Numbered from the stretch's first letter, positions 772 through 34,900 are shown. The stretch is 39,537 bases of DNA from Sphaeroforma arctica JP610 (GCF_001186125.1 NW_014040439.1:107749-147285); one strand, 5' to 3'. Translations and numbers: made by a program. Notes: generated from the sequence alone by a model not told the origin.

Positions 772-3700
772 ACCGAGATCTCTGGGACTCAAAGACTCTG
801 ATAGACAGCGCTATACACCCTGATCACAAAGGGACGGTGCCGCATCTCTTCCGATTCTCGGCATTTGTACCCGCGAATATAGTGGTGGTGGCTGCTATGT
901 TGTCTCCGGTGGTAATTGCCTCGCCCGTGCTCACCATTGCGGCCCATTGGTGAGTATTGTAATGTTTGAAACGTACTCGATTAGGGACACTCGTAGCAGC
1001 GTGCAAGATTGGGTGTGCTGGTTTCTGTTAACGGAGCCGTTTTGTTTTGTTTTTTGGTGACCGTAATGCTTCAACCGGAAGTGATTGGAAGGATAGGTAG
1101 TGCGGATGTGTGGTGCGTGTGTACCACATGGTGTAGATGAATAAGTACGCATGGCTATAATCGCTGTACGCTAGTGGTTTACCGGGGGGGGGGGGGGTAG
1201 TCATCATCGCCGGTGGCATACGCATGGCCTATCGCGTTGTGTGAATCTCTCACAGCTCGTTCACCTTGTTATGCATGACATTTGCTACTTCTACCTTGTG
1301 TCTGTGTCCCAGTATCCACTCGTTGACAGCAGCGTTTGTTTGATACGAACAGGTATCAATCCTGCTTTAAATTGCATGTATGTGTGAAGCAAATAATACA
1401 TCCGAGTGCAATCATATCCGCGTAGCTCTCTGTCACTTCACGCCGATATATATGTGCGTTGTGCCCGTTTGTTTTTATCTGTTCAGAATTGATTACACGA
1501 GTTTGAATCTGTATACATACAAGCAAGCGGACTCCATTAGCTACCAGCGTACTATCAAGGCAGTCGTGATCTTGGTATATCAAAACTATCATCCCTTATA
1601 CTTTGCGTCACTCCGTATGGGCTACATGCACAGCTGCAGTGCAGGCCGTTGTCCTCACTCATGCTCAATTGACCAACCCCGCCAACAGGACTAATCAGAG
1701 TTACAATGCTGCTGTGAACTATTGCAATCGAAACGCGTCACAGCCCGTGCCCGCCAGTTTGCTCGCGCAGGTGAGGATGAGTGACCGTTTGGAGAATAGT
1801 ATGCTCTCGTGTATGACTTTTATTTTGTGTATGACTGTCCGTATCGTATATGTGAATAGTATAGTATACTTCAATCCATCAATTGCGCGCTCTGTGGGCT
1901 GGGTGGTGGCACTCGATTTGTATGATTATTGTGCACGCTAGGTATTCTCCCATGCGGACCCTGTGTCGATGTTTTCACCTTTGAACACTGAATAGCCGCG
2001 TGCGCCCTATTCGTTGCAATTAAAATTTTGTTGAAACAATTTATAGATTTCAAGGAGCAGAGACGGCACTAGACTCCGTTGGTGTTGGGTTGTCCCTGAT
2101 AGACAAGTCTCGAGTGCCATTGCTGTACTTGTGCGAAATCATCCCAGAAATAAATCGGATTAGTGTTAAGAGTGATCTCGCAGCATTGCAGCTATTTTGA
2201 GAGTTCATACTGTAAGTGTAGTCTGAGCCCGAAATAGGGTCTTGTCTCGACTAAACGCAAACGAAGACGGGGTACTCATCTGGAGTACGATGTTATTGTG
2301 CAGGGCTACGTAGGGGCAGTGGGAGCATCGGTATCAATTGGTTTGGCTGCGACGGCACTGACCACTAAGGCTGCCAAGCTCGGTACGTATACGAATCTTC
2401 CCTATTGCTTGCTCGTCGGGCGGCTGTGATCTGTGTCTGTACGGAGTTCATCGTTGTTTTGGCCCCCCCTCGGGGCATTTCCCTCCCATTCCTTACGCAT
2501 CTCGTGTTGTACCTTGTGTCTGCCAAAGGTGTTTTCTGTATTAGTCCGGTGTTCGAAATGTAGCATTGTGCGTTGCACGCTCTGAGATGCACTTGCGGTG
2601 AATACGAATAGTTACATGCTAGTCGTATAGGTTTATAACTACCCGGTTTATAAAAAGCAGAAACGTGGGTCGAGGGTGCAGCTGTGGCGATGGGCGGGCT
2701 CCCACGTCCTTTGTATTTTAAATACAGATATGGTGACCAATGCGCGTTCACTTGTATAGATGTATTCAGATATATGAGGGTTTTGTCTGGGGAAGGAATT
2801 TATTAGCGCATCCGAGAATTTATCAGCGTATCTGACCCACCACATTTTCTGCACACGCTTATCCCAAGGCCCGGGTGCTGCCTTGGCCATTCGTGCGACA
2901 CTCCCGTTCTTGGCGTGTGCCGTGTCGGGAGTACTAAACATTGGACTTATGCGACGATCGGAACTAGAAACCGGTGTCACGGTGTTCGATCATGAAGGTA
3001 ACTTTTATTGACGGTATATGCGCTCCCTTTGGACACAAGGGCTGGGTGTTGAGTAGTCTAAGACACTTGCTTGCAGTGCGAATATACACTGGTCTAGCTA
3101 CGGCTCCTTCGCCCTCCGGTATTGGGTATTGATGTGTTTGATCCATTTGAATTTTGTGAGCTCTCCGCCAGCGATATTCTTCCATTCTACCAAGAAGTGT
3201 TTGATATCTTGTTACAGTGCTATTTTAAAATTGGTATTGGCGGGAAGAGTACTACCGAGCTGACAACATGGTTGGTGCTGTGCGCACTTTCTGGTGTGAC
3301 CTGGCCTGTTTTGGGCATTTGATATGCACGTGCAAAATGCTATACATCTATATCTTCCATATAACCAAACAAACTTTAATAGGGGAAGCTAGGGGACAAT
3401 CTATTAAAGCAGCGGAGAAAGGTCTGAAAGAGTGTGCGGCAGCTCGTGTGTTGTGGAACATTCCCATCACCGTGTTCCCAGCGCTGATCATGAGCAGGTG
3501 TGGCATATACGCATTTTATTCAGTACGAATGTGAGGATTCAAATTATTTTAGAAGGTGACATGTTGTTTTATGTTTTCGTTCGCATACGTGTATTTGTGT
3601 GTTTGATTTTGGTTGTGTTTTTGATGCAGAATCACTCTTTACGTCGCTTTTTGGGACATTGCTACCTATGCTTTCCCGTAGTCTCCTTTGTGTCTTATAT

Positions 3701-4636
3701 AGATCGATTTTGTTTGTGTGTTTGGATGAGGTACCAATATAATTTTACGAAGCGTAGTATAGCTGTGCGGGAGCGCCTCAGCACGTCATCGGAGAAGAGC
3801 TGCCGGCGCATTTACACCACACAAGATAATATTCACTCAAATCCAATCAGTTTCGATACACACAGACAATTTATCCGGTGCAGTGCATCAGTGTGTGCGC
3901 TATTTAGTGTAAATGTTTATTGTATGGCCTGGTGCACCAAAGTGAGTAGCATTACAAGTCTGTCTCTCCAGAAGTGTTGGTGGTGTTAACCACCCTATAG
4001 TGTGCAAAATCGATACTATTGGTCTGCAAAAGTATTTCCTCATTTCAGGCTGATCAGTCGTACTGCGACTGCGATGCTTCTAACTGAGTTGTAACAATTT
4101 TATCTTGTCCCCGACATGCTTCTAGATATTGTATTGGAGTGTCTTTCGGTCAGGTTTTCTTCTGTATATATCCATCAGTCAGTATATACGCACTCTAGAG
4201 TTATATACATATCCCACATAAGGCTCAAAAACCACACTATATTGCTGATCAGACTGGAGAAGAAAACATTTTTGGTATCCAACCCACGTGTGCGAATGGC
4301 AGTGGAAATGGGGGTTATTGGCGTGTGCCTATTCCTGGGCGTAGTTCCAGCGCTCGCCGCGTTCCCACAGGTATGTCACTACTGTCTAACTCTCTGGAGG
4401 TGCTTGCGTCTATTTCAGATTTTGCACGTTGTGCCATTCAAAATGCTGTGGATATTCATAAAATTTTATTATTTATAACCACTACTTCATGTGTACCATA
4501 CTCGTGTCTCTCTCCTCTGATATACTTGTTACAGATTGAATCTATGAATGCGGATGATATGGAAGAGCAATTCCAGAATCTAAAGGATTCTAACGGCCAG
4601 AAGGTGGAAAAGTTCGTGTTTAATAAAGGCCTGTAG
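772..4636 (+). CDS. SFXN: Sideroflexin (mitochondrial tricarboxylate/serine carrier family), 5'-partial; exons 772-949, 1689-1770, 2304-2382, 2869-2997, 3383-3497, 4253-4370, 4535-4636
   Basis: GT-AG introns with consistent phases join sideroflexin motifs: LWDSKTLIDSAIHPD, FSAFVPAN, HWTNQSYNAAVNYCNRNAS, LPFLACAVSGVLNIGLMRRSELETGVTVFD, GQSIKAA, LAAFPQ and the diagnostic C-terminus FNKGL*. The start codon lies upstream of the window. Confidence 0.93.
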
Positions 4637-16579: not shown

Positions 16580-18350
16580 ATCCTTGATATACGAGTTAAT
16601 GGACATTAAAAAAAAGCGTTGTTGGGTCCAGGCTCGCAAATTTCATGTATATCATCTAGATTCTGTAAGATGACAGACATAACTCGTAAGTCAGAACCAA
16701 CTATGTTGAAACTGGCTGACGAAAGAGAGATCACTTGTAGAGAGATGGCGATCGATCTTAGGTTTACTTTGACAGACCAACGTACTACAGTTACTAAGGC
16801 AGTCATATGTAACACATCACCTGACTATGATCTCATAGTGAGCATGGGTGATTTATTGTCACTAGGTATAGTAAATACAGGCTTACCTATGAACATTGAA
16901 CCACAGAAGGATCAGTCGGACGATAAACCTTCGAAGACTGTGAACGAGATGATCCCTCACTTCACAAAGAAACTCAAGGACTTACTTTTTGAAAATGACA
17001 AGACCAAGATTACTGACTGGGCTAAGTTCAAATTCAACAACGGATATGTTAGTCTAATCTGACCAGAGTGGATTTCTCGAAGTTGAAGCGTCCTACACGT
17101 AACTATGTTGCATGGCGTTATGAGCAGGTCGTACGTGAGCAGGTTAAACTTGGTTAGATGATGGAGTGATCGCCGTCAACTACGACCCGACTCCCGTCAA
17201 CCTAGCGCTTTTAGTCGTCGACCAGTTCAACTCTGACGTGACGCTGAAGAAGGTTTGGGTGTGTTTGGACATAAGCGCCAATAACGCTCTGATACCGACA
17301 CACAATTTTCACTTACCAAGGATAAACGAACTACTCAGGCGTATGGAGGGAGCTAATATATTTTCCACTATCGACCTGAAGCAGGGCTACCACCAGATGA
17401 AGATGTACAAGCCACATCGGAAGTATTTCACCTTTACCTGGGAGGGTCAGTAATATTTGTTCAAAGGCGCCCCCTTTGGGTTACACATTTTACCTGCCTT
17501 CTTCCAGCAGATAATGCAAGATTTGTTTAGGGACATGTACAATGTACAAGTATACATTGATGACATTGTGGTACTCACCAAAACCAAAGAGGAACACGAC
17601 AGGGTTGTGCGAGAGGCCCTAGACAGACTCAACAAGCACAACTTTAATGTCAACAGTAAGAAATATCACTTCGGTGTCAACGAGATTCAACTGTTGGGTT
17701 ACCGAGTATCCGGGGATGGAATCATGATCGATCCCGGGAAGGTCGGACACTAGCTAGACTGGAGAACTCCTACCACAGAAAAGGATGTCAACAGCATGTG
17801 CGGACTCGGCAACTTTTTGTCTGACGGGGTACCACACCTGGCGAGCTACTTGAAGCCCTTTGGACATTTGAGATGTCATAAAGGCAAACTAGGCGCACTG
17901 TGGACCAAAGACTGTGATGACGCATTTAAGCAGCCCAAAACAGTGATTCAGCAGGCACCAGTAGTCCAGCCACCAAAGTATGGTATTCCATTCATGGTAG
18001 CAACAGACGCGTCCGACATGGCACTCGGCGGCGTTCTGTATCAAATGATTGAAGGGAAACCAAGATATGTACAGTTCTTTAGCAGGGCTATGAACTCGTC
18101 TCAGATCAATTACCCAACCGTGCAACAAGAGCTTTTGGCTATTGTTACTGCACTCACTCATTTTAAGGACTATCTATATGGCACACACTTTAACGTGCTA
18201 TGTGATCAGAAGTCATTGCAACACCTAAAGGACATGAAAAATAACTCACAGTTAGTCAGTCGGTGGCATGACACAATTGCGAAATTTTCTTTCGGCATAA
18301 CACACATACCGGGTTTTCACAATCACTTACCCCACATGTTGTCTCGCTTC
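16580..18350 (+). pseudogene. Pol: aspartic protease, reverse transcriptase and RNase H (Ty3/gypsy type)
   Basis: PR: VILDIRVNGH*KKALLGPGSQISCIS (catalytic Asp replaced by Gly) and YDLIVSM. RT: FSTIDLKQGYHQ, APFGL, VYIDDIVV (17553), IQLLGY. RH: FMVATDASDMALGGVLYQ, FFSR, YPTVQQELLAIV, VLCDQKSL, RW, HIPG..N...MLSR. Confidence 0.92.
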
Positions 18351-18389
18351 GTACCAGATTGTAACAATATGGTTAGGGAGTTACTTAGG

Positions 18390-18770
18390 TGGTTTAAGAT
18401 CGCTGACAACACACATGGACCACATACCATAGATATGTTTGCCGCACATCATAATGAGCAACTGCCGAGGTACCGGACATTGGAACATCCGGAAGGAGTC
18501 GGATTCCAGATAGACTTGTCTAACGAGAATGCCTGGGCAAATCCTCCATGGCTATCAATACCACAGTTACTAAATTATATACATATTCAAGATGCTACCA
18601 TCACGTAGTGTTGTCCCCTAAGACACTCAGATAAATGGCTACCACAGTTGATCTCAATGATACAATGTGGGCCGATCTATGAGGATAGAGAGGTAGATAC
18701 TTTCTATGCCAGGGTACCCGTGCAGTCCAGAAGACGCCTTGGCGACATACTATAATATGTCGAATAGGTC
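18390..18770 (+). pseudogene. N6-adenine DNA methyltransferase domain (DIRS/phage Dam-like) fused in frame after RNase H
   Basis: WFKIADNTHGPHTIDMFAAHHNEQLPRY (SAM-binding DxFA at 18432) and AWANPPW (catalytic NPPW at 18540-18551). It continues ATIT*CCPLRHSDKWLPQLISM...GP...DTF, then after a frameshift KTPWRHTIICRI. Confidence 0.85.
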
Positions 18771-23508: not shown

Positions 23509-23728
23509 TTCTAATGCATAACTCTAATACATAACTCTAATGCATACCTCTAATCCTCACCTCTAATGCATACCTCTAATTCTCACCTTTAATGCATAAC
23601 TCTAGTGCATACCTATGCGTACCTTTAATGTATACCTCTAATGCATAACTCTAATGCATACCTCTAACGCATAACTCTAATGCATACCTCTAATGCATAA
23701 TTCTAATGCATACCTCTAATCCTCATCT
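23509..23728 (+). repeat. Intronic 13-bp minisatellite
   Basis: CTCTAATGCATA(A/C) units, about 16 copies. Confidence 0.9.
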
Positions 23729-24798
23729 CGGGAGCGACTTTCTCAACTTCTTCAAATTGGCACAATCTATGAACCCGCACCTGTATGTTCGAACTCTGCG
23801 CGACAAAGCGACCAATGTTCTCAAATGTGTTCTTTGGATGACGAACACCATGAGAAAGAATTATAGAAATTTTGGTCGTATTGTCAGCATGAATGCTCGC
23901 CAGAAGGGGAATAAGGAGTGGTGGTGGCAAATCTCTATATTGGTAGGGCCAGGCAACGACGGCAAAATCAAGTACTTCGGTGCTATGCTATTCTATATGG
24001 AGACGAAAGAAGTATATAGATTTGCATTAGATTCTCTACATAAATCAATGGGCGAGAGGGCGCCATTGAAAACTAAGATAAATTTTGCCGATGGATTTTT
24101 GAATCAATCCGATGTTAGAGAAGGACAGTTTTATTTTGCTGATAGCTACAATACATGGCAGACTATCAGTAAGAATCTTGGTAGGTACTACAGTGGGCGG
24201 GTGAAAAAGGCCTTGGACAAAGATATGCACGCCACAACACAACAACTATGTGACCATTACCTTGATATTGCCATTGATATACTGTCTCAGAAGAATGCTG
24301 CCACTGGGGTTCGATTCTTGAATAAGATGAAGCAATCATCTGAACACATGTTTGAATGGGGTATAGCTGGAAAGCTCACAATGGGGCTTAAAGGGTCACA
24401 GATGAGTGAATCGTCAAATTCTCAACTGGAAGCTTGGTTCAAGTCTTTGATACTTACAATGCCTAGACTTTTCACTGGCATATGCAAAATTGCCAATCAG
24501 ATGCATTCAGCCAGTAGAATAGCAAGAATCAGGTATAATATGATATGCAACATAGGGAAGTACGATGATGACGGCCCGCCTAGATTCCACGAGCCCGTTC
24601 ACATAGCAGACTGCAGAAAGTGGGGCAGTGAAATATGTACCGAGCGGGTTTCAGTCGAGGTTGATTAGGCCAGATCGTATCGTATCGACTCATCCCAGGA
24701 CCTCGGAGAAAATGTGACGTCCTACAAGTGCGCGTACGACGGAAGAGAGGACCGATACCTAACCGTTTTAGGGACAGGAGAAAGGTAATCGTTCACTA

Positions 24799-27935: not shown

Positions 27936-28613
27936 AATACTTTGTTAGCGAGATGGCTCAACCAAATATAGGTTTCTAGGGATTATTAACGTTACCTAGT
28001 TGATCCTCCGATCAGCCGTCCATATGTGCCAGTCTGATGAAGGCTGAGTAGGTATTTCTTGATAAGTGACAAGTTATTGGTTAAGACAATAACTAAGGAC
28101 ATCAAGAGTATTTCTATTTTTTATTTTATTTTTTTCTAAAGATAGGATTTTATGAGTCTCTCGGATTCGCCCCAGTGAAACATACCATAGTTTCTAATAG
28201 AGCGACAACGAAGCACTAAATAAAATCCCTTCGGCGGCAACAGTACTGAGAGAATTATATATAGGCAATGTCTCAGCCTCACAATCCCTCAGAGTATTGC
28301 TGTTTTCACGAGGCATACATAACTTTACTAAAAGTCTCATTTCGATTATTTACCTTGATATTTTCACGATACTTAGAATTTACCTACGCGTTTATTTACT
28401 CTAAGACGTTAATATCGCATTAATAGACCGAATCTTACAGTGTCAAAGTCTCCACACGCAGTAAACAACATTTATCGTATTCATAGTATTCACTGGCCCC
28501 ATAAAGGCGATCCCCGGATTGAAAGAACATTTCCTCCAAGCAGTATGCTGTAATTTAAATAATAAGCAGGACAGGACGCGTGGTAAGTAAATGTTTCAAC
28601 AAAATGTAGAAGC

Positions 28614-29663
28614 GAGCATGTATCAATGCATGCATTCATTTCTTCTTCACCTTGATCTGTATTGATATTGTAAAAATAGTGAGTTCCTAATTTATTATAA
28701 ACGTATCAACGTATCAACGTTTATACTTATAATACTGGCAGTAATACTGGGATACGTTTAACGAATTAGACATGAACAAGAGCTGCGAAATTCAAGATTC
28801 TGAACATGTGACAGTATTTAGTAGAGTATGGGACTTTACTGTGGACAATTAGGTGGCTTTCCAAATATAGATTGGGTTTTCCACTGAAATTAGAATTGTA
28901 CATAATATCGGAATGACACCAGCCTGACACCTGAATATGACACTTTGGGAATCTCTAATTAAAGGGNNNNNNNNNNNNNNNNNNNNTATGGTATAATTCG
29001 AAGATCTCAGAGCAAGATAATTCAATGAGAAAAGGACAGGATCAGAGTTGTTAGAATTTAGGACAACATGGTTTAACTCCTCCTAGCTAGCCAACTAGAT
29101 GTGCTCGTCTATGCCTTAAATGGGATGGGGAGCTGGGTACCAAGTGATGGGGTTTAGGTGCAGATATGTATACTGCACCGATTTGGTATTTTGATTTTAT
29201 TTTATATTTTCTTTAGTTGGACTTAGAGGTATTTTACTGGTTAGTTTGATTAGGTGATTGTTTCGAGGCGTGAAATGTAAACTAAGCGTCTAATGAAATG
29301 ATACCTAGTCTTAGTAAAACAAAAAATAATCTAGACCGAAGTAGTGAGTGATTAGAGCGGAGCCTATAGACAATAGTCTCAGTCTGAAATTCCCTAATCC
29401 TTTGCTCATTACCAAGGGCTGAAGCTAAACTTATTTAACATTTTGTATTTTAACATTTTAACGTACTGTATTAATAACGTAAACGTCTTGGTATCGTATA
29501 GTCAGCCTAGAGGAGACCAAGTCTTGCAAATGTCTCGCCACTAATTTAATGACAAAGAATTAGTTAGGTTGTTGGAAAGGACGTGTGAATGTATTGAGCT
29601 TGTATGCAATGCATGCTTTCATTTCTTCTTCGCTTTGAACTGCATTGATATAATAGCAATAGT
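28614..29663 (+). repeat. Diverged ~67-bp direct repeat (28614-28680 and 29596-29663)
   Basis: CAATGCATGC.TTCATTTCTTCTTC.C.TTGA.CTG.ATTGATAT occurs in both copies. Confidence 0.7.
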
Positions 29664-30099
29664 ATTTCTGATACGATTAATGATATAGAATCAATCAGAT
29701 CGGAAAGCAGACATACCATCAAGCATTATTTATACATATTTTGCATTTGCACGCATGCGCATGCGCATTATCAGCTTACCTTGATGTTACCAGTTATGGC
29801 TCCATTGATGCTCTCTCTTCTCTCTCCCCCCGTAAAGTTTGCTGTATGTAGCCAGATCAATTTCATAAATTTAGCATTATTTCATAGCAAACATCAGAAA
29901 GGCTACTGACACAAATACAGCTTATTTCACAAGATACCTCAGTTATCAGCTACGTATGCGATATACGATGCTAAAAAAAGAGTATTATTTTTCGCTCGTC
30001 TATATACACGTTAATTTATTTATTAATTTATTACCTACATCTTTCCCGCTCTTTCCAACAGATCAATAAAAACATACTACCTTTTTATAGTAAGAAGTG

Positions 30100-30399
30100 T
30101 ACGAGAGAGGGGCGTTCAACTTGGAGGGGGGCGAGAGAGGGGCGCTTAACTTAGAGGTGGGCGAGAAAGGGACGCTTAATTGGGGGAGGCGAGAGAAGGG
30201 CGCTTAACTTGGAGGGAGGCGAGAGCGGGGCGCTTAATTGGCGAGAGGCGAGAGCGGGACGCTTACCAGAGGGAGTCTTTACTGGACGCTTAACAGCCGT
30301 AGTCTTAACGGGACGCGTAACAGCCGTAGTCTTAAGAGTTAGTCATACCAGCCGTATTCTTAAGAGTTAGTCATACCAGCCGTAGTCTTAAGAGTCCCC
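30100..30399 (-). mobile_element. Orphan terminus of a related MULE/foldback-like element
   Basis: The minus strand starts GGGGACTCTTAAGACTACGGCTG, with tandem CAGCCGTAGTCTTAA(GAG) units. About 5-6 GCGAGAGAGGGGCGCTTAA units follow, the reverse complement of the 22524-22667 array. Confidence 0.55.
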
Positions 30400-31901
30400 G
30401 CTAAAATCACGCTAATTAAATCTTTAAAAAAGCAAAGTAAACTCGAGAAAGTATAAGTATGAGACTGGTAGGAAACTGGGCCTGAGGTGGTTTATATAAT
30501 TTTATTGTCACCGGTGCCGTATAAAGACATGCGTCCGAGAGTCTACGACTTCAACATTTTACCAGTAGTTGCTTTTTTAAAACCCCCCAATATTTTAACT
30601 GTAAATAAACTAATATGGATTTTAAACAAGTTCGAACCCTCGTCCTCGAGTCGAGTCCTCGACTTTGGGTCTTTGAAGGCTCGACGAGACAAGACAAGAG
30701 ACTCGAGACTGCTCTCTTCTTCGACTTTCGAGTTTCGAATCCTGCGCGAAAAAAACTAACTTTTCTGTTTTGTAATTTTTGAGAAGAAAAAAAGGTTAGC
30801 ATTTTGTTGGTTGTTTTTGTGAGTTGCAGTTTTGCGCCCTCTGAAGTCTGAACTTCTGAAGTCTGAACTTTTTAACCTCCGCATTTTAAAAAGTTTTCCT
30901 TTTTTTTAAAAACTAAACAAATAGTAAATACTTTCCAACTATAAACTGAATACGAAGGAATTTTTGACTTTTAGTGTTTCGTTGAAAAAACGGTAATGTG
31001 TAGCAGTACATTTAAAACATCGTAGTGAAGCACATAAGTTTTAATAAAAACTACTCGAAGTTTTAAAATTGAGTGCCATTCCAAATATAACTCGACGCAA
31101 TTTCGCTTGTATTTACTGTTTTGTGTAATTTATTTTTCTTTACTTTTTGTATAGCCTTCTGAAAATATCTTATTTAAAAATAGAACTTTTTTGGGGGCGT
31201 TGTTTTTTTGATACCCTGTGTATTTATGTACAGATGTATTTATGTACTGTATTTGTAAATATTTATTTATATACATAACAAAACAAAAAAGAAATATTTT
31301 GTTTTTTTATGAAAAATAAATAAATATACAGAGCCTACTACATAGAGTAAGCCTACTAAATAATAAATTTTTACTATAAAAATAAAGTTTATGGCAGAGT
31401 TGGAAAAATTAAAAAACCCCCCCCAAAAAAAGTTATGTTCAATTCATATTTATATGTATTTAAATATAAATATTTTCTTTGTACAGCGAGAGGGAGAGCC
31501 GGAGAGGTTCACGACTCGCGACTCAGGAGATGACTTCGGAGAATATATCGGATGAAGTGAACCCGCATGGATTCAGTTGCATCGCACTTAATTTACAATT
31601 ACGTGTCCGTTGGTTAGTATCTCCTTTTTATTGTATTCGCATCAGTACACCATAGTCGTCTGTAGGATAACAGGAGTAAGTGGAGACATTATACTTTAAC
31701 TAGATGAACCCAAACAAGGTTCGATAATATAGGCACATACTCACACTCACGACGCCTTTAACCTCGAAATATACAAGTTCACTCGCCATTAAATTTGTCA
31801 TAGAATATACACCCTCCTGTTCTACTTAATCTCAGGGCTGGCACACATATTCGTATGAATTTTAATTGATACAAATATAACAATTACGCGAAAGTCGAAC
31901 T

Positions 31902-34900
31902 ATGCTTGTACACCGATTGCTAGCACTGTTTGTATCCGTGCACGCCTCGCTGTCTTTGTCTATCTCCGACACACAACAACGGCAACAACTTGAATATGAT
32001 GGAGAGAGACAATATCGACAAGATACACCACTTTACGATAAATCACACGGCTCTTCTGTAAGCAGGAGGCAAGTATTATCTGAATGTGCCACCGAGCCTT
32101 GCAGACGTGGTACGTGTGTGGATGATGCGCAAGGATTCACTTGTATTTGTCCCGAAGGCTACAAGGGATATACATGTATCATAGAGATAGGCGGGCTTCT
32201 GGATGTACCGGACTTATCTCCAAGTCCATCTAGTACTCCATTGCCATCTCCTATAGCGATTCCGACTTCTATTCCAACTAAAACACCATCAGCAGCACCA
32301 TCAGCATCGAGTCACCCTACACAAGCGCCATCGACCACGCCCAGCCCGCTACAGCTCGTAAAGGGAATCAATGTAACAATCGCAAAAACTGCGAAGATTG
32401 GGACAGGTGTTACAATTGGGGATGATGTGACAATTGAACAGGACGTCGAATTGGGCGACTATGTGGAGATTGCAAGTAATGTAATCCTGTATAGAAATAC
32501 AAAGGCGGACAATTACGTAAGGATCGGTATTGATGTATCGGGTGAACCTAACTATCATTATCGACGAGCAGTTGGTGACGAACGCAGAGCTCTAACCATA
32601 ATCGGGAACAATGTTAATCTTCAGACCGCCTCAACTGTCGCCGCCGGGGCTAGTGTTTGTATGTGTAGTTTTATACAAGGATTATGTATATTTAGGATTG
32701 CTCAGTTTTGTCCTCGCTAACTATTTGTTGTTATGCTTGCGCTGTATAAATAATGACAGTAAAAGTTGAAACGCAGACATTCAAATGCGCCTGCAAAGTG
32801 CTTGTATAATTTTTGCTTTAGAATTGTCGAGTTTTGTATGCGGCCTGCACCAATATTATTTTAACTGTATCTGCATCCTTGTACGTCACAACATGTGTGT
32901 AATATCTACACTGCAACGAAAAGGTATAGTTTGTTATACATGTTTTCGAATCTGATGATCGTGGTTGGGAGTAGCAGTAGCCGAACGGCCTCAAATTACA
33001 TTCATGTGTGTAACCGTGAATGATGGCGCGTCAATATTTGACAGTATCTAGTCAGGCTTATAATTATGTACTTCATCAACCTTTATGTCACTGTATTTGC
33101 TGTGCTTGAATTTCAAAAATCGAGGTTTACAAAGTTCTTATCCCGTAATATGTGTCCAATGATGTCGTAGCCCCTGTGAGTATATTTGCACGTGTTATCA
33201 AAGGTATGCATATTGGGAACTTATTATCTATTTACCTTTTTCAACTTTTTTCCTTGCATACCTTCAGCTAGATACGCCACAATCGGAGAAAACTCTATCA
33301 TAGGACCCTCGACTGTGTTGGCGCAGTATGTTGATGTGGGCGCAAATACAGTTGTGGGGAGCAATTGCTCTTTAGGATCTTTCACCACGATCGGCGAAGG
33401 CGTTGCGTTGGGCCCGCTATCGAAGGTCGATACAAAGGTTATCATTGCAGATAATGTCAATATCGAGGAGGAGTATGTGCTTTTTTTTCTCCTTCGGCTT
33501 TCTCAGGGAGGACTGTTAGGTGTTGCAGGCACGTGATGATATAGTAGCCTCGTTTGTGTGCATCTCCAAATTTACTGTACGAATATTATAGCGACTCGTT
33601 CAAGCTACCTGAAAATTTGTACTTGCAACCTGAGTCGCACACCTTGGTATGTGCTATGTTGATCACTTAAATCCTTTTTTGAAGACAGTGTGAATCGAAG
33701 GAAGATTACAATCTCACAGCATTTTAATACTTGCATCACTCTTTAGATTGACAATTGGGAGAGGCTCAACAATAGATATCAATTCGTTCGTAGGTGCGCG
33801 CAGCACCATCGGAGAATCGGTGACCCTTGGATCTGGTAGGTCGTACACGGTTGTGTGTGATATCTACCCTTTTTGATTTTTTTTCATGAGTTTTGGGCCG
33901 AGTTTGAAGTGTTGGGAAACTCAATTAATTCTGTACAAATTCAATAAGGGAGGAAACGAAAACTCTACCCAGCCCCCCCCCGGTGCAAGGTGGATTTCCC
34001 CCCCCACTAGATTATCGTTAATTGTCTTGAATAAACAAATTCCCATCGTACGCATTCTCTACTTTTCAGACGTTGCTGTGGGCCCGGATACCGTCATAAA
34101 GAACGGAGCAAAGGTGGAGAACAACGTAAAGCTGGGAACCGCAACAGTCGTCGGTGATAGTGTGGTGATACCATATCAGACGGTTGGCGCCGATGGGCAG
34201 CAGTTTGTCGACGACACTTCTGTCTCGAGTATGTGAATGTAGTTTTTGTTCTGACACTTCTGTCTCGAGTATGTGAATGCAATTGACGTTCTGTCCTGCT
34301 AGGTGTAAATGAACTCGCTGTTCTAGAATTGAATGTACTACTGGAATACCAGAATAGATTCCAGTGGCGTTTTTCGATTCAAATTCTTTGAATCTAGTGT
34401 TATCTACATCGCTTGCTATGAATGTGTGATCCGATGGCGCCGTGCTCTCATATCACATAGAGCGAAATACTCACCCAGCGTGCGGTATAGTCGAGTCTAC
34501 CATGGTATGCATCTGATCTTTTTTTAACGTTTATTTGCTTTTACTTGTAATTGTTCTCTACTGCATTGTTGCGACGATTCTGGCTTGTACGCGTCTCACA
34601 TTATGCCAGCAACCCTCTAATTTTTAACAGTCAAACCTTATAGAAGTAAAATACGTCGCTTACATTTAATTTCGTCGTACAAACAGTGACATCAATAGTC
34701 GGCGCAGTTACCGGTGTAGTCGCGGCCCTCTTGATTGTCGGGCTTGGCATCTGGTGCTTTTTTGAACGTCGCAAACAGCAGGATATCGACAGATGGACTG
34801 GCAAGAAATCTAGCGAATCTATCGACTGTGAGATTTTCGAGACTGAGGCTCCGGTCTCAGTATTGCGCAATGTACGCGCTACATAGTAAGTTGCCGGGTG

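What the first reader, a model, noticed from the sequence alone, without database searches (positions are those of the whole stretch)
31902..34770. RTK ectodomain built from EGF plus left-handed beta-helix hexapeptide repeats
Seen: four exons encode long runs of [IVL]-G-x-x-[VAST]-x hexapeptides (AKIGTG VTIGDD VTIEQD VELGDY VEIASN; ATIGEN SIIGPS; VDVGAN TVVGSN CSLGSF TTIGEG) between the stalk and the TM helix. Known: such repeats form LbH folds, typically homotrimeric, in mostly intracellular acyltransferases (LpxA/GlmU class). They are not an ectodomain of animal RTK families. Inference: this may be a trimerising or glycan/surface-binding receptor module, possibly of prokaryotic origin, giving an RTK that does not signal as a simple dimer.
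Basis: partly seen in the sequence, partly recalled or inferred. Interest (0 to 1): 0.7.

Follow-up and report, generated by a model that had tools for sequence, protein, structure and literature searches.

The report
Protist receptor kinase with beta-helix stalk
A single-celled relative of animals transcribes a receptor tyrosine kinase whose outer part is a long run of hexapeptide repeats, predicted to form a rigid beta-helix rod of a kind best known from bacterial enzymes, interrupted by an arginine-rich loop that two related receptors share and that is likely cut by a protease.

Summary
Nine in-phase GT-AG exons (31902-38722) give a 1236-aa protein identical to a Sphaeroforma arctica 'TK protein kinase' record. 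Its order is signal peptide, EGF, P/S/T stalk, 36 hexapeptide repeats, one TM helix and an intact tyrosine kinase. Contigs from three studies splice all eight introns, one as a single contig, so ectodomain and kinase are one transcript; two further organisms do the same.

It is a small family: two Creolimax RTKs also carry hexapeptide repeats next to the membrane. All three have one Arg-rich loop breaking the helix 173-186 aa before the TM. In both Creolimax ectodomains the only R-x-[KR]-R furin-type sites lie in that loop; here it holds two RR pairs.

Best reading: a non-catalytic beta-helix spacer, likely clipped by a kexin/furin-type protease into a two-chain ectodomain. The kinase also has a 438-aa activation segment.

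Not shown: left-handedness (the AlphaFold model appears mirror-handed), trimer formation, cleavage, kinase activity or bacterial origin. The repeat is missing from the domain labels I could read in the 2014 ichthyosporean RTK catalogue. Verdict: new variant of a known kind.

The parts
31902..38722 (+). RTK gene, 9 exons: 31902-32658, 33268-33472, 33747-33835, 34070-34228, 34687-34885, 35156-35276, 35953-36049, 36278-36430, 36792-38722; 1236 aa
   Evidence: All 8 introns GT-AG and in phase. Identical to P0001 = KNC85203.1/XP_014159105.1. All 8 joints seen in contigs.
31902..31958 (+). Predicted signal peptide (about aa 1-19); a polar segment ending in an RR pair (aa 55-56) follows before the EGF
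   Evidence: Hydropathy heuristic only, 11-residue mean 2.0; RR position. No signal-peptide predictor was available.
32085..32177 (+). Single EGF-like domain, aa 62-92, six Cys
   Evidence: Pfam EGF above cut-off; Cys at 62, 67, 72, 81, 83, 92.
32187..32354 (+). Pro/Ser/Thr-rich stalk, aa 96-151, fast-evolving
   Evidence: 58% P+S+T. 2 synonymous and 10 non-synonymous codons against run X10, and two in-frame insertions.
32358..32537 (+). Hexapeptide block A, aa 153-212, 10 hexads
   Evidence: modelled as beta-solenoid.
32538..32597 (+). Arg-rich loop interrupting the helix, aa 213-232, with RR at 221-222 and 228-229; candidate convertase site
   Evidence: pLDDT below 50 at aa 211-228. Equivalent loops in P0065 and P0034. 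3-nt deletion at aa 213 in run X11.
32598..34182 (+). Hexapeptide block B, aa 233-388, 26 hexads over exons 1-4 (three introns inside)
   Evidence: pLDDT block means mostly 90-98.
34689..34763 (+). Single TM helix, about aa 405-429, followed by a basic cluster (ERRK)
   Evidence: Only hydropathy peak above 1.7 in a 19-residue window; Pfam TM_ErbB1 E 3e-5, below cut-off.
35181..38521 (+). Tyrosine kinase domain, aa 479-1170, split by the long activation segment
   Evidence: GSGTFG 486, VAIK 507, HRDLAARN 605, DFG 632, LPLRWMAPE 1073, SDVWSYG 1092; PF07714 E 4e-75.
36914..38227 (+). 438-aa Ser-rich activation segment with 8 Tyr between DFG and LPLRW
   Evidence: Against 19 and 45 aa in the two Creolimax relatives. 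No joint inside exon 9 in any run laid; its one indel is in frame.

Best explanation
This is a transcribed single-pass receptor tyrosine kinase of an ichthyosporean whose 36 hexapeptide repeats are predicted to form a rigid, likely non-catalytic and likely left-handed beta-helix rod that would hold the EGF and P/S/T tip away from the membrane, and whose arginine-rich loop is likely cut by a kexin/furin-type protease to give a two-chain ectodomain. Shown: gene structure, one transcript, type I layout, intact kinase motifs, repeat periodicity, and the loop in three receptors. Inferred: (1) a 12-turn rod of roughly 6 nm (p about 0.9 for a solenoid, 0.85 left-handed); (2) no enzyme activity in the rod (0.9); (3) cleavage at the loop during secretion, with the distal piece (EGF, stalk, 10 hexads) kept on by beta-strand stacking against the membrane-anchored 26 hexads (0.55); (4) binding or pulling at the tip clusters receptors or releases the distal piece, and kinases then trans-phosphorylate Tyr in the 438-aa activation segment, which would serve as the SH2 docking region that the relatives carry in their C-tails (0.4).
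For: One transcript: all 8 joints in runs X3, X4 and X5 (3 studies); X3 record 2 (4336 nt) spans 31828-39273; single contigs in organisms C and D, one study. Constraint: X10/X11 differ at 7 and 5 of 204 nt in exon 2 and 3 and 6 of 160 in exon 4, against 53 of 856 and 58 of 855 over exon 1 with its UTR. All 5 coding indels are in frame and none falls in a helical turn. Fold: pLDDT 84.8 beta-solenoid with only the loop and C-end disordered; the top 26 VIA rows are all LbH proteins, Z 14-19. Family: 2 of 149 non-self hits listed are RTKs, Creolimax CFRG0219T1 and CFRG1497T1. Loop: 3 of 3 RTKs have it, 173, 186 and 175 aa before the TM, with 2, 3 and 3 RR pairs and none elsewhere in the repeat region. 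Control: of 147 other hits, 53 have a comparable gap; 6 of 53 hold RR and 1 of 53 holds R-x-[KR]-R. The only R-x-[KR]-R in the 4630-aa ectodomain of P0034 is in the loop. The only His in aa 152-400 is in the loop, and the relatives' loops have none. Kexin-like genes are reported in yeast, Capsaspora and Monosiga (10.1101/802215, passages).
Against: The window's own loop has RR pairs but no R-x-x-R or R-x-[KR]-R site. Three receptors are few. The loop limits were set by eye, and the RR shuffle test (72, 1 and 61 of 100000) uses a weak null, because helix positions disfavour Arg anyway. The Creolimax repeats are no closer to this one than bacterial ones are: ranks 41 and 94 by best BLAST segment, and not grouped in the quick tree. 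Kinase identity is only 43-49%. The model superposes on LbH structures at rmsd 10-12 A but on right-handed solenoids at about 3 A, and Foldseek gave no match at E<=0.001, so the model does not confirm left-handedness. Tyr docking motifs in the insert are not significantly enriched: 4 of 8 against a shuffle mean of 1.83, reached in 1715 of 20000 shuffles. P0065 lacks an evident signal peptide. No convertase was looked for in this genome, which was not available.
Confidence: 0.5

Rival explanations
1. Trimer receptor: three beta-helices pack about a threefold axis as in LpxA/LpxD/GlmU, pre-assembling three kinases that are switched by ligand binding in the inter-subunit grooves, which the loop would flank. 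Compatible with cleavage.
For: The closest solved sequences and folds are LbH acyltransferases and gamma-carbonic anhydrases, which are mostly trimers (recalled). In those enzymes, loops inserted in the helix line the inter-subunit site (recalled). An aromatic ladder Y255/Y273/F291 sits on one corner.
Against: No helical or coiled-coil trimer domain follows the repeats. Outward-facing columns are mixed polar and beta-branched with no clear hydrophobic stripe (by eye). Non-trimeric LbH domains exist (eIF2B epsilon appears; dynactin p25/p27 and insect antifreeze proteins recalled). Helix length before the loop varies from 60 to 249 aa in the family.
Confidence: 0.25
2. Uncut spacer or adhesin: the rod is an intact stalk or polyanion/glycan-binding surface, the basic loop is a binding patch rather than a cleavage site, and the receptor signals as an ordinary ligand-induced dimer.
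For: No canonical furin site in the window's protein. 16 of 34 top hits scanned pair long hexapeptide runs with TSP3, lectin, fibrinogen, PKD, Ig-like, FG-GAP, protease or EGF domains. One third of ichthyosporean RTKs use adhesin-like I3 repeats (PMC4342544, passages).
Against: Both Creolimax relatives place canonical R-x-[KR]-R sites in this loop and nowhere else in the ectodomain. Comparable gaps in the non-kinase hits rarely hold RR (6 of 53).
Confidence: 0.2
3. Ecto-enzyme or pseudokinase: the repeats are an extracellular acyltransferase or carbonic anhydrase, or the huge activation segment has inactivated the kinase.
For: Fold relatives are enzymes. The 438-aa segment is about 10 to 20 times longer than in the relatives.
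Against: No conserved His and no enzyme accessory domain. All kinase motifs are intact, and exons 6-8 differ at only 4 of 119, 2 of 97 and 3 of 153 nt in X10.
Confidence: 0.05

Closest known systems
Ichthyosporean RTK radiation, IchRTK1-20 (Suga et al. 2014, PMC4342544)
   Same: Same organism (37 S. arctica RTK domains counted there); signal-ectodomain-TM-TK layout; EGF use; lineage-specific shuffled ectodomains, including I3 repeats shared with prokaryotic adhesin-like proteins.
   Different: The domain key lists EGF, LRR, CLECT, TNFR, I1, I3, ANF, TSP1, Kelch and PbH1 but no hexapeptide/LbH. I3 is a 25-residue GGA(V/I)(Y/F) repeat, not this 6-residue one. The gene is probably in that catalogue under an EGF-only or unclassified label; I could not map it.
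Creolimax fragrantissima CFRG0219T1 (P0065) and CFRG1497T1 (P0034)
   Same: Hexapeptide run directly before the TM, one Arg-rich loop at a similar distance from the membrane, TK 43-49% identical.
   Different: P0065 has no EGF and no evident signal peptide; P0034 has about 4100 aa of Cys-rich EGF-type repeats. Both have canonical furin-type sites, short activation segments (19 and 45 aa) and long Tyr-rich tails. Neither is shown to be the one-to-one ortholog.
LbH acyltransferases LpxA, LpxD, GlmU, QdtC and gamma-carbonic anhydrases
   Same: [IVL]-G-x-x-small-x repeat; same 18-residue coil distance pattern (Z 14-19; profile E down to 7e-32).
   Different: Here extracellular, fused to a kinase, 12 turns long, with no conserved His and no accessory enzyme domain; trimer untested.
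Secreted bacterial modular proteins with long hexapeptide runs (named examples from Bradymonadia, Myxococcota, Vicingaceae)
   Same: Long uninterrupted repeats in proteins with extracellular-type domains, one of them with EGF (P0026).
   Different: No TM-kinase (0 of the 147 other hits); rarely an RR loop; identity only 24-38%.
Convertase-processed two-chain receptors: insulin receptor, Met, Notch S1 (recalled)
   Same: Basic site in an exposed ectodomain loop, with the fragments expected to stay associated.
   Different: No homology implied. No Cys pair could link the two pieces here (one Cys in the repeats), so association would be non-covalent; cleavage not shown.

Membership tests
Receptor tyrosine kinase | N-terminal signal and a single TM helix with basic residues inside | tested here: met
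   One hydropathy peak at aa 401-431 followed by ERRK; signal by heuristic only.
Receptor tyrosine kinase | TK catalytic motifs (GxGxxG, VAIK, HRDLAARN, DFG, PxRWMAPE) | tested here: met
   PF07714 252.9 bits against PF00069 129.5.
Receptor tyrosine kinase | Ectodomain and kinase on one transcript | tested here: met
   runs are labelled 'RNA?' by guess, but the contigs lack exactly the 8 introns.
Receptor tyrosine kinase | Ligand-regulated Tyr phosphorylation | not testable with these tools
   Needs an assay.
Hexapeptide-repeat (LbH) superfamily | Aliphatic residue every 6 positions; Pfam Hexapep above cut-off | tested here: met
   34 of 36 hexads; 80 bits against 27.
Hexapeptide-repeat (LbH) superfamily | Parallel beta-solenoid with LbH coil geometry | tested here: met
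   Model pLDDT 84.8, built on an alignment of hexapeptide proteins, so not independent of the sequence match; best Z scores are LbH proteins.
Hexapeptide-repeat (LbH) superfamily | Left-handed coil | tested here: inconclusive
   High Z with rmsd 10-12 A to LbH and about 3 A to right-handed solenoids suggests a mirror-handed model (my inference, coordinates not inspected). AF2 flips solenoid hand with sparse alignments at equal pLDDT (PMC10192328, passages).
LbH acyltransferases (LpxA/LpxD/GlmU) | Conserved catalytic His (recalled) | tested here: not met
   Only H219, in the loop; no His in the loops of the two relatives.
LbH acyltransferases (LpxA/LpxD/GlmU) | Accessory enzyme domains (Acetyltransf_11, LpxD, PglD_N, nucleotidyltransferase) | tested here: not met
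   None in Pfam scans of the exons or the whole protein.
LbH acyltransferases (LpxA/LpxD/GlmU) | Homotrimer | not tested
   No complex model was obtained.
Gamma-carbonic anhydrase | Three His zinc ligands on the helix (recalled) | tested here: not met
   One His in aa 152-400.
A named IchRTK family of Suga 2014 | Listed domain architecture and tree position | tested here: inconclusive
   Figure drawings not visible; labels hold no hexapeptide domain; the alignment text was scrambled, so motif look-up failed.
Furin-processed two-chain receptors (works-like) | Canonical R-x-[KR]-R site in an exposed ectodomain loop | tested here: not met
   Window protein has RR pairs only (kexin-type dibasic, recalled); met in both Creolimax relatives.
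Furin-processed two-chain receptors (works-like) | Site exposed and unstructured | tested here: met
   pLDDT below 50 at aa 211-228 between ordered strands; predicted only.

The most novel reading that the evidence does not exclude
An undescribed ichthyosporean receptor family in which a hexapeptide beta-helix, co-opted from secreted bacterial proteins, assembles three kinases into a pre-formed trimer and is cut mid-helix by a convertase, so that the distal turns act as a detachable, force- or ligand-released cap: a threefold, Notch-S1-like RTK that evolved independently of animal receptors.
Probability: 0.15. Interest if true: 0.8.

Novelty: new variant of a known kind. Interest (0 to 1): 0.52.

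Why it matters
It adds a module, not found in the searches run here, to the ectodomain repertoire of premetazoan RTKs, and shows the hexapeptide fold used as a eukaryotic cell-surface receptor part rather than an enzyme. The conserved basic loop gives a sharp test of whether convertase-matured two-chain receptors arose outside animals. The fold makes the oligomer state of an RTK directly testable (monomer, dimer or trimer). A kinase that tolerates a 438-residue activation segment is a natural experiment on activation-loop control. Both species are studied in the laboratory, so these tests are practical.

Tried and rejected
No whole genome was held, so paralogs and a convertase gene could not be searched.

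Folding exon 1 alone without an alignment failed (pLDDT 39). Foldseek on the good model gave no match at E<=0.001.

Word-index homolog searches found only the query itself or it plus one Myxococcota protein; each scored about 8000 crowded candidates, so absence is weak. Only the best 150 of 3776 hits were listed, so more LbH-RTKs may rank lower. My first regex missed the kinase of P0034; a profile search corrected this.

ESM Atlas gave no usable hit and did not hold P0065.

A tree of 47 repeat segments was a quick tree only: 2 of 44 inner branches starred, median end branch 1.68. It neither groups nor separates the three ichthyosporean rows and names no donor. GC and GC3 of the repeat exons match the rest of the gene (0.48/0.47), and turns share only 37% nt identity, so neither a recent transfer nor a recent internal duplication is seen.

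No listed run is on record as RNA; the case for transcription rests on the joints.

Earlier-findings look-ups returned nothing. CFRG0219 and CFRG1497 were not in the text or the 3 held supplements of PMC4739763.

Rejected: separate genes, retained intron in the activation segment, pseudogene, acyltransferase, gamma-carbonic anhydrase.

Full report
1. Observation. Reading 28000-39537 and the stop-to-stop frames gave nine exons from the ATG at 31902 to the stop at 38722. All eight introns are GT-AG, the phases agree, and the product is 1236 aa with no internal stop. A search with the last exon returned one protein, P0001, named 'TK protein kinase [Sphaeroforma arctica JP610]' (KNC85203.1), identical to my model. 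The gene is therefore already annotated, and its precomputed Pfam list already holds PF00132 and PF07714. The host is an ichthyosporean, a unicellular relative of animals. The repeats form 10 + 26 hexads, with I/V/L at the core position in 34 of 36 and Gly next in 20 of 36. The periodicity was reached by 0 of 100000 shuffles for the long block and 293 of 100000 for the short one.

2. One transcript. I laid 6 of the 23 listed runs. X3, X4 and X5 (three studies) each show all 8 joints and X6 shows 6 of 8; X3 record 2 runs from 31828 to 39273 as one 4336-nt contig. X10 and X11 (organisms C and D, one study) carry single contigs of 90-95%-class likeness with the same eight skips. The runs are RNA only by the tool's guess, but the contigs lack exactly the introns. 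Repeat exons 2 and 4 differ at 7 and 5 of 204 and 3 and 6 of 160 nt, like kinase exons 6-8 (X10: 9 of 369) and less than exon 1 with its UTR (53 of 856, 58 of 855). The five coding indels are multiples of three and fall in the stalk (aa 109, 129), loop (213), activation segment (957) and tail (1185). Only 40 of 223 difference rows were shown. The 35 coding ones give synonymous/non-synonymous codons of 2/4 (leader), 5/2 (EGF), 2/10 (stalk) and 5/2 (repeats to aa 203); these are small numbers.

3. Anatomy. The order is signal, polar leader ending in RR, one six-Cys EGF, P/S/T stalk, repeat block A, a 20-residue loop, repeat block B, TM with a basic inner flank, and kinase with all catalytic motifs. 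Between DFG and LPLRWMAPE lie 438 aa, Ser-rich with 8 Tyr, unspliced in every run laid.

4. Relatives. phmmer with aa 151-406 over 1.84 billion representatives gave 3776 hits at E<=0.001, of which 150 were listed. Two of the 149 non-self hits carry a kinase: Creolimax CFRG0219T1 (P0065; repeats-TM-TK) and CFRG1497T1 (P0034; about 4100 aa of EGF-type repeats, then repeats-TM-TK). Kinase identities are 43-49%. Of 34 top hits scanned with Pfam, 16 join the repeats to extracellular-type domains and 3 to acyltransferase accessory domains; 15 show only repeat families. The named ones are from Bradymonadia and Vicingaceae, and one is Plasmodium TREP. HMMER sums over repeats, so this ranking favours long arrays and is no evidence of descent. 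By best single segment the Creolimax repeats rank 41st and 94th, and the quick tree is unresolved. Bacterial origin is possible and unproven.

5. The loop. All three receptors have one interruption of the helix, 173, 186 and 175 aa before the TM, while the helix before it varies (60, 138, 249 aa). The loops hold 2, 3 and 3 RR pairs and the rest of each repeat region none. In both Creolimax proteins the only R-x-[KR]-R sites of the whole ectodomain (345 and 4630 aa) are in the loop. The window's protein has two RR pairs there but no canonical site. Among 147 non-kinase hits, 53 have a 12-45 aa gap between repeat runs; 6 of the 53 hold RR and 1 a canonical site. Kexin-like genes occur in yeast, Capsaspora and Monosiga (10.1101/802215, passages); their presence here is inferred, not tested. 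Kex2 and furin specificities are recalled.

6. Fold. AlphaFold2 with a 52-row alignment (51 of the 149 hits, chosen for compact repeat runs) gave pLDDT 84.8 and pTM 0.76, with short strands every six residues on both sides of a disordered loop at aa 211-228. The alignment's profile matches 201 solved sequences; the 60 shown are all LbH proteins. VIA-align ranks LbH proteins first (7 top rows, 26; Z 14-19) but at rmsd 10-12 A, whereas right-handed solenoids superpose at about 3 A with Z 11-14; Foldseek found nothing at E<=0.001. I infer that the model is the mirror-handed version of the LbH coil. AF2 is reported to flip solenoid hand with sparse alignments at equal confidence (PMC10192328, passages; 10.1101/2025.03.18.644030, passages). 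Left-handedness thus rests on sequence homology. The only His is in the loop and is not shared, which argues against acyltransferase or gamma-carbonic anhydrase activity. The oligomer state is untested.

7. Mechanism. Most likely the rod (about 12 turns, roughly 6 nm at the usual strand spacing, recalled) is a non-catalytic spacer. It is likely cut at the loop in the secretory pathway and held together by strand stacking, with the EGF-stalk tip as sensor. Clustering or release of the tip would activate the kinases, which would phosphorylate the activation segment. The relatives have 19- and 45-aa segments but 215- and 651-aa Tyr-rich tails, while this protein has a 66-aa tail, which suggests the docking region moved into the loop. 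Motif enrichment in the insert is not significant (4 of 8 Tyr; 1715 of 20000 shuffles). The species has SH2 proteins of Src, SHP-like, GRAP and PLC-gamma type (PMC4342544 supplement). Rivals are a pre-formed trimer (0.25), an uncut adhesin-like stalk (0.2) and an enzyme or pseudokinase (0.05).

8. What is known. Suga et al. 2014 (PMC4342544) catalogue 37 S. arctica and 30 Creolimax RTK domains with lineage-specific, rapidly shuffled ectodomains, including prokaryote-like I3 repeats. I saw the abstract, passages, sections 6, 9, 17 and 25, supplement 2 parts 1 and 4 of 4, supplement 1 part 1 of 25, and term searches of both files. 'Hexapep' has 0 occurrences in the main text, and 'hexapep', 'LbH' and 'beta-helix' have 0 in both supplements. 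The figure drawings were not visible, so a drawn but unlabelled domain could be missed, and the gene is probably listed there under another label. Full-text searches pairing hexapeptide or left-handed beta-helix with tyrosine kinase and holozoa, ichthyosporean or extracellular, and Creolimax RTK with furin, returned 0 papers. Searches listed nothing on this architecture by title or start of abstract. Subscription journals are mostly not searched, and bioRxiv supplements are closed. I also saw passages of PMC5876402 and PMC7616799, and passages, section 11 and a supplement search of PMC4739763; none describes it.

9. Verdict. A real, transcribed, constrained RTK with an ectodomain module and a conserved basic loop that I did not find described, shared by at least two Creolimax receptors. 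It is a new variant of a known kind, interest 0.52. The trimer and transfer ideas stay open.

Noticed in passing
window 36914-38227 (+): 438-aa low-complexity activation segment inside an otherwise intact tyrosine kinase, kept in frame in two other organisms; 19 and 45 aa in the Creolimax relatives.
   Followed up: partly
window 34213-34279 (+): A 27-nt stretch including the exon 4 donor site is duplicated 40 nt downstream; all contigs laid use the first donor.
   Followed up: partly
window about 3229-4636 (+): Exons of a sideroflexin gene (Pfam SFXNs above cut-off in three frames).
   Followed up: no
window 16610-18608 (+): Stop-interrupted retroelement pol: RVT_1, RT_RNaseH, then a weak Dam-type methyltransferase match (E 0.0017, below cut-off).
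   Followed up: no
window 23694-24668 (+): 324-aa frame with a weak ZSWIM RNaseH-like match (E 0.003), probably a Mutator-type transposase remnant.
   Followed up: no
protein P0007, aa about 1630-2390 (one search hit): Plasmodium ovale TRAP-like protein TREP has a run of about 100 hexad-periodic repeats before its TM, a second possible eukaryotic surface use of this fold; a paper search on TREP and beta-helix found nothing.
   Followed up: partly
proteins P0006-P0154 (one search hits): Many unnamed or loosely named secreted bacterial proteins carry 30-60 hexads next to TSP3, lectin, PKD or fibrinogen domains; 19 of 149 end in a similar aliphatic-aliphatic-Pro cap motif, which resembles the last hexads here.
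   Followed up: partly
window 30103-30395: Short tandem repeats (about 30-nt and 21-28-nt units) upstream of the gene, seen by eye; transcript contigs begin near 31582.
   Followed up: no
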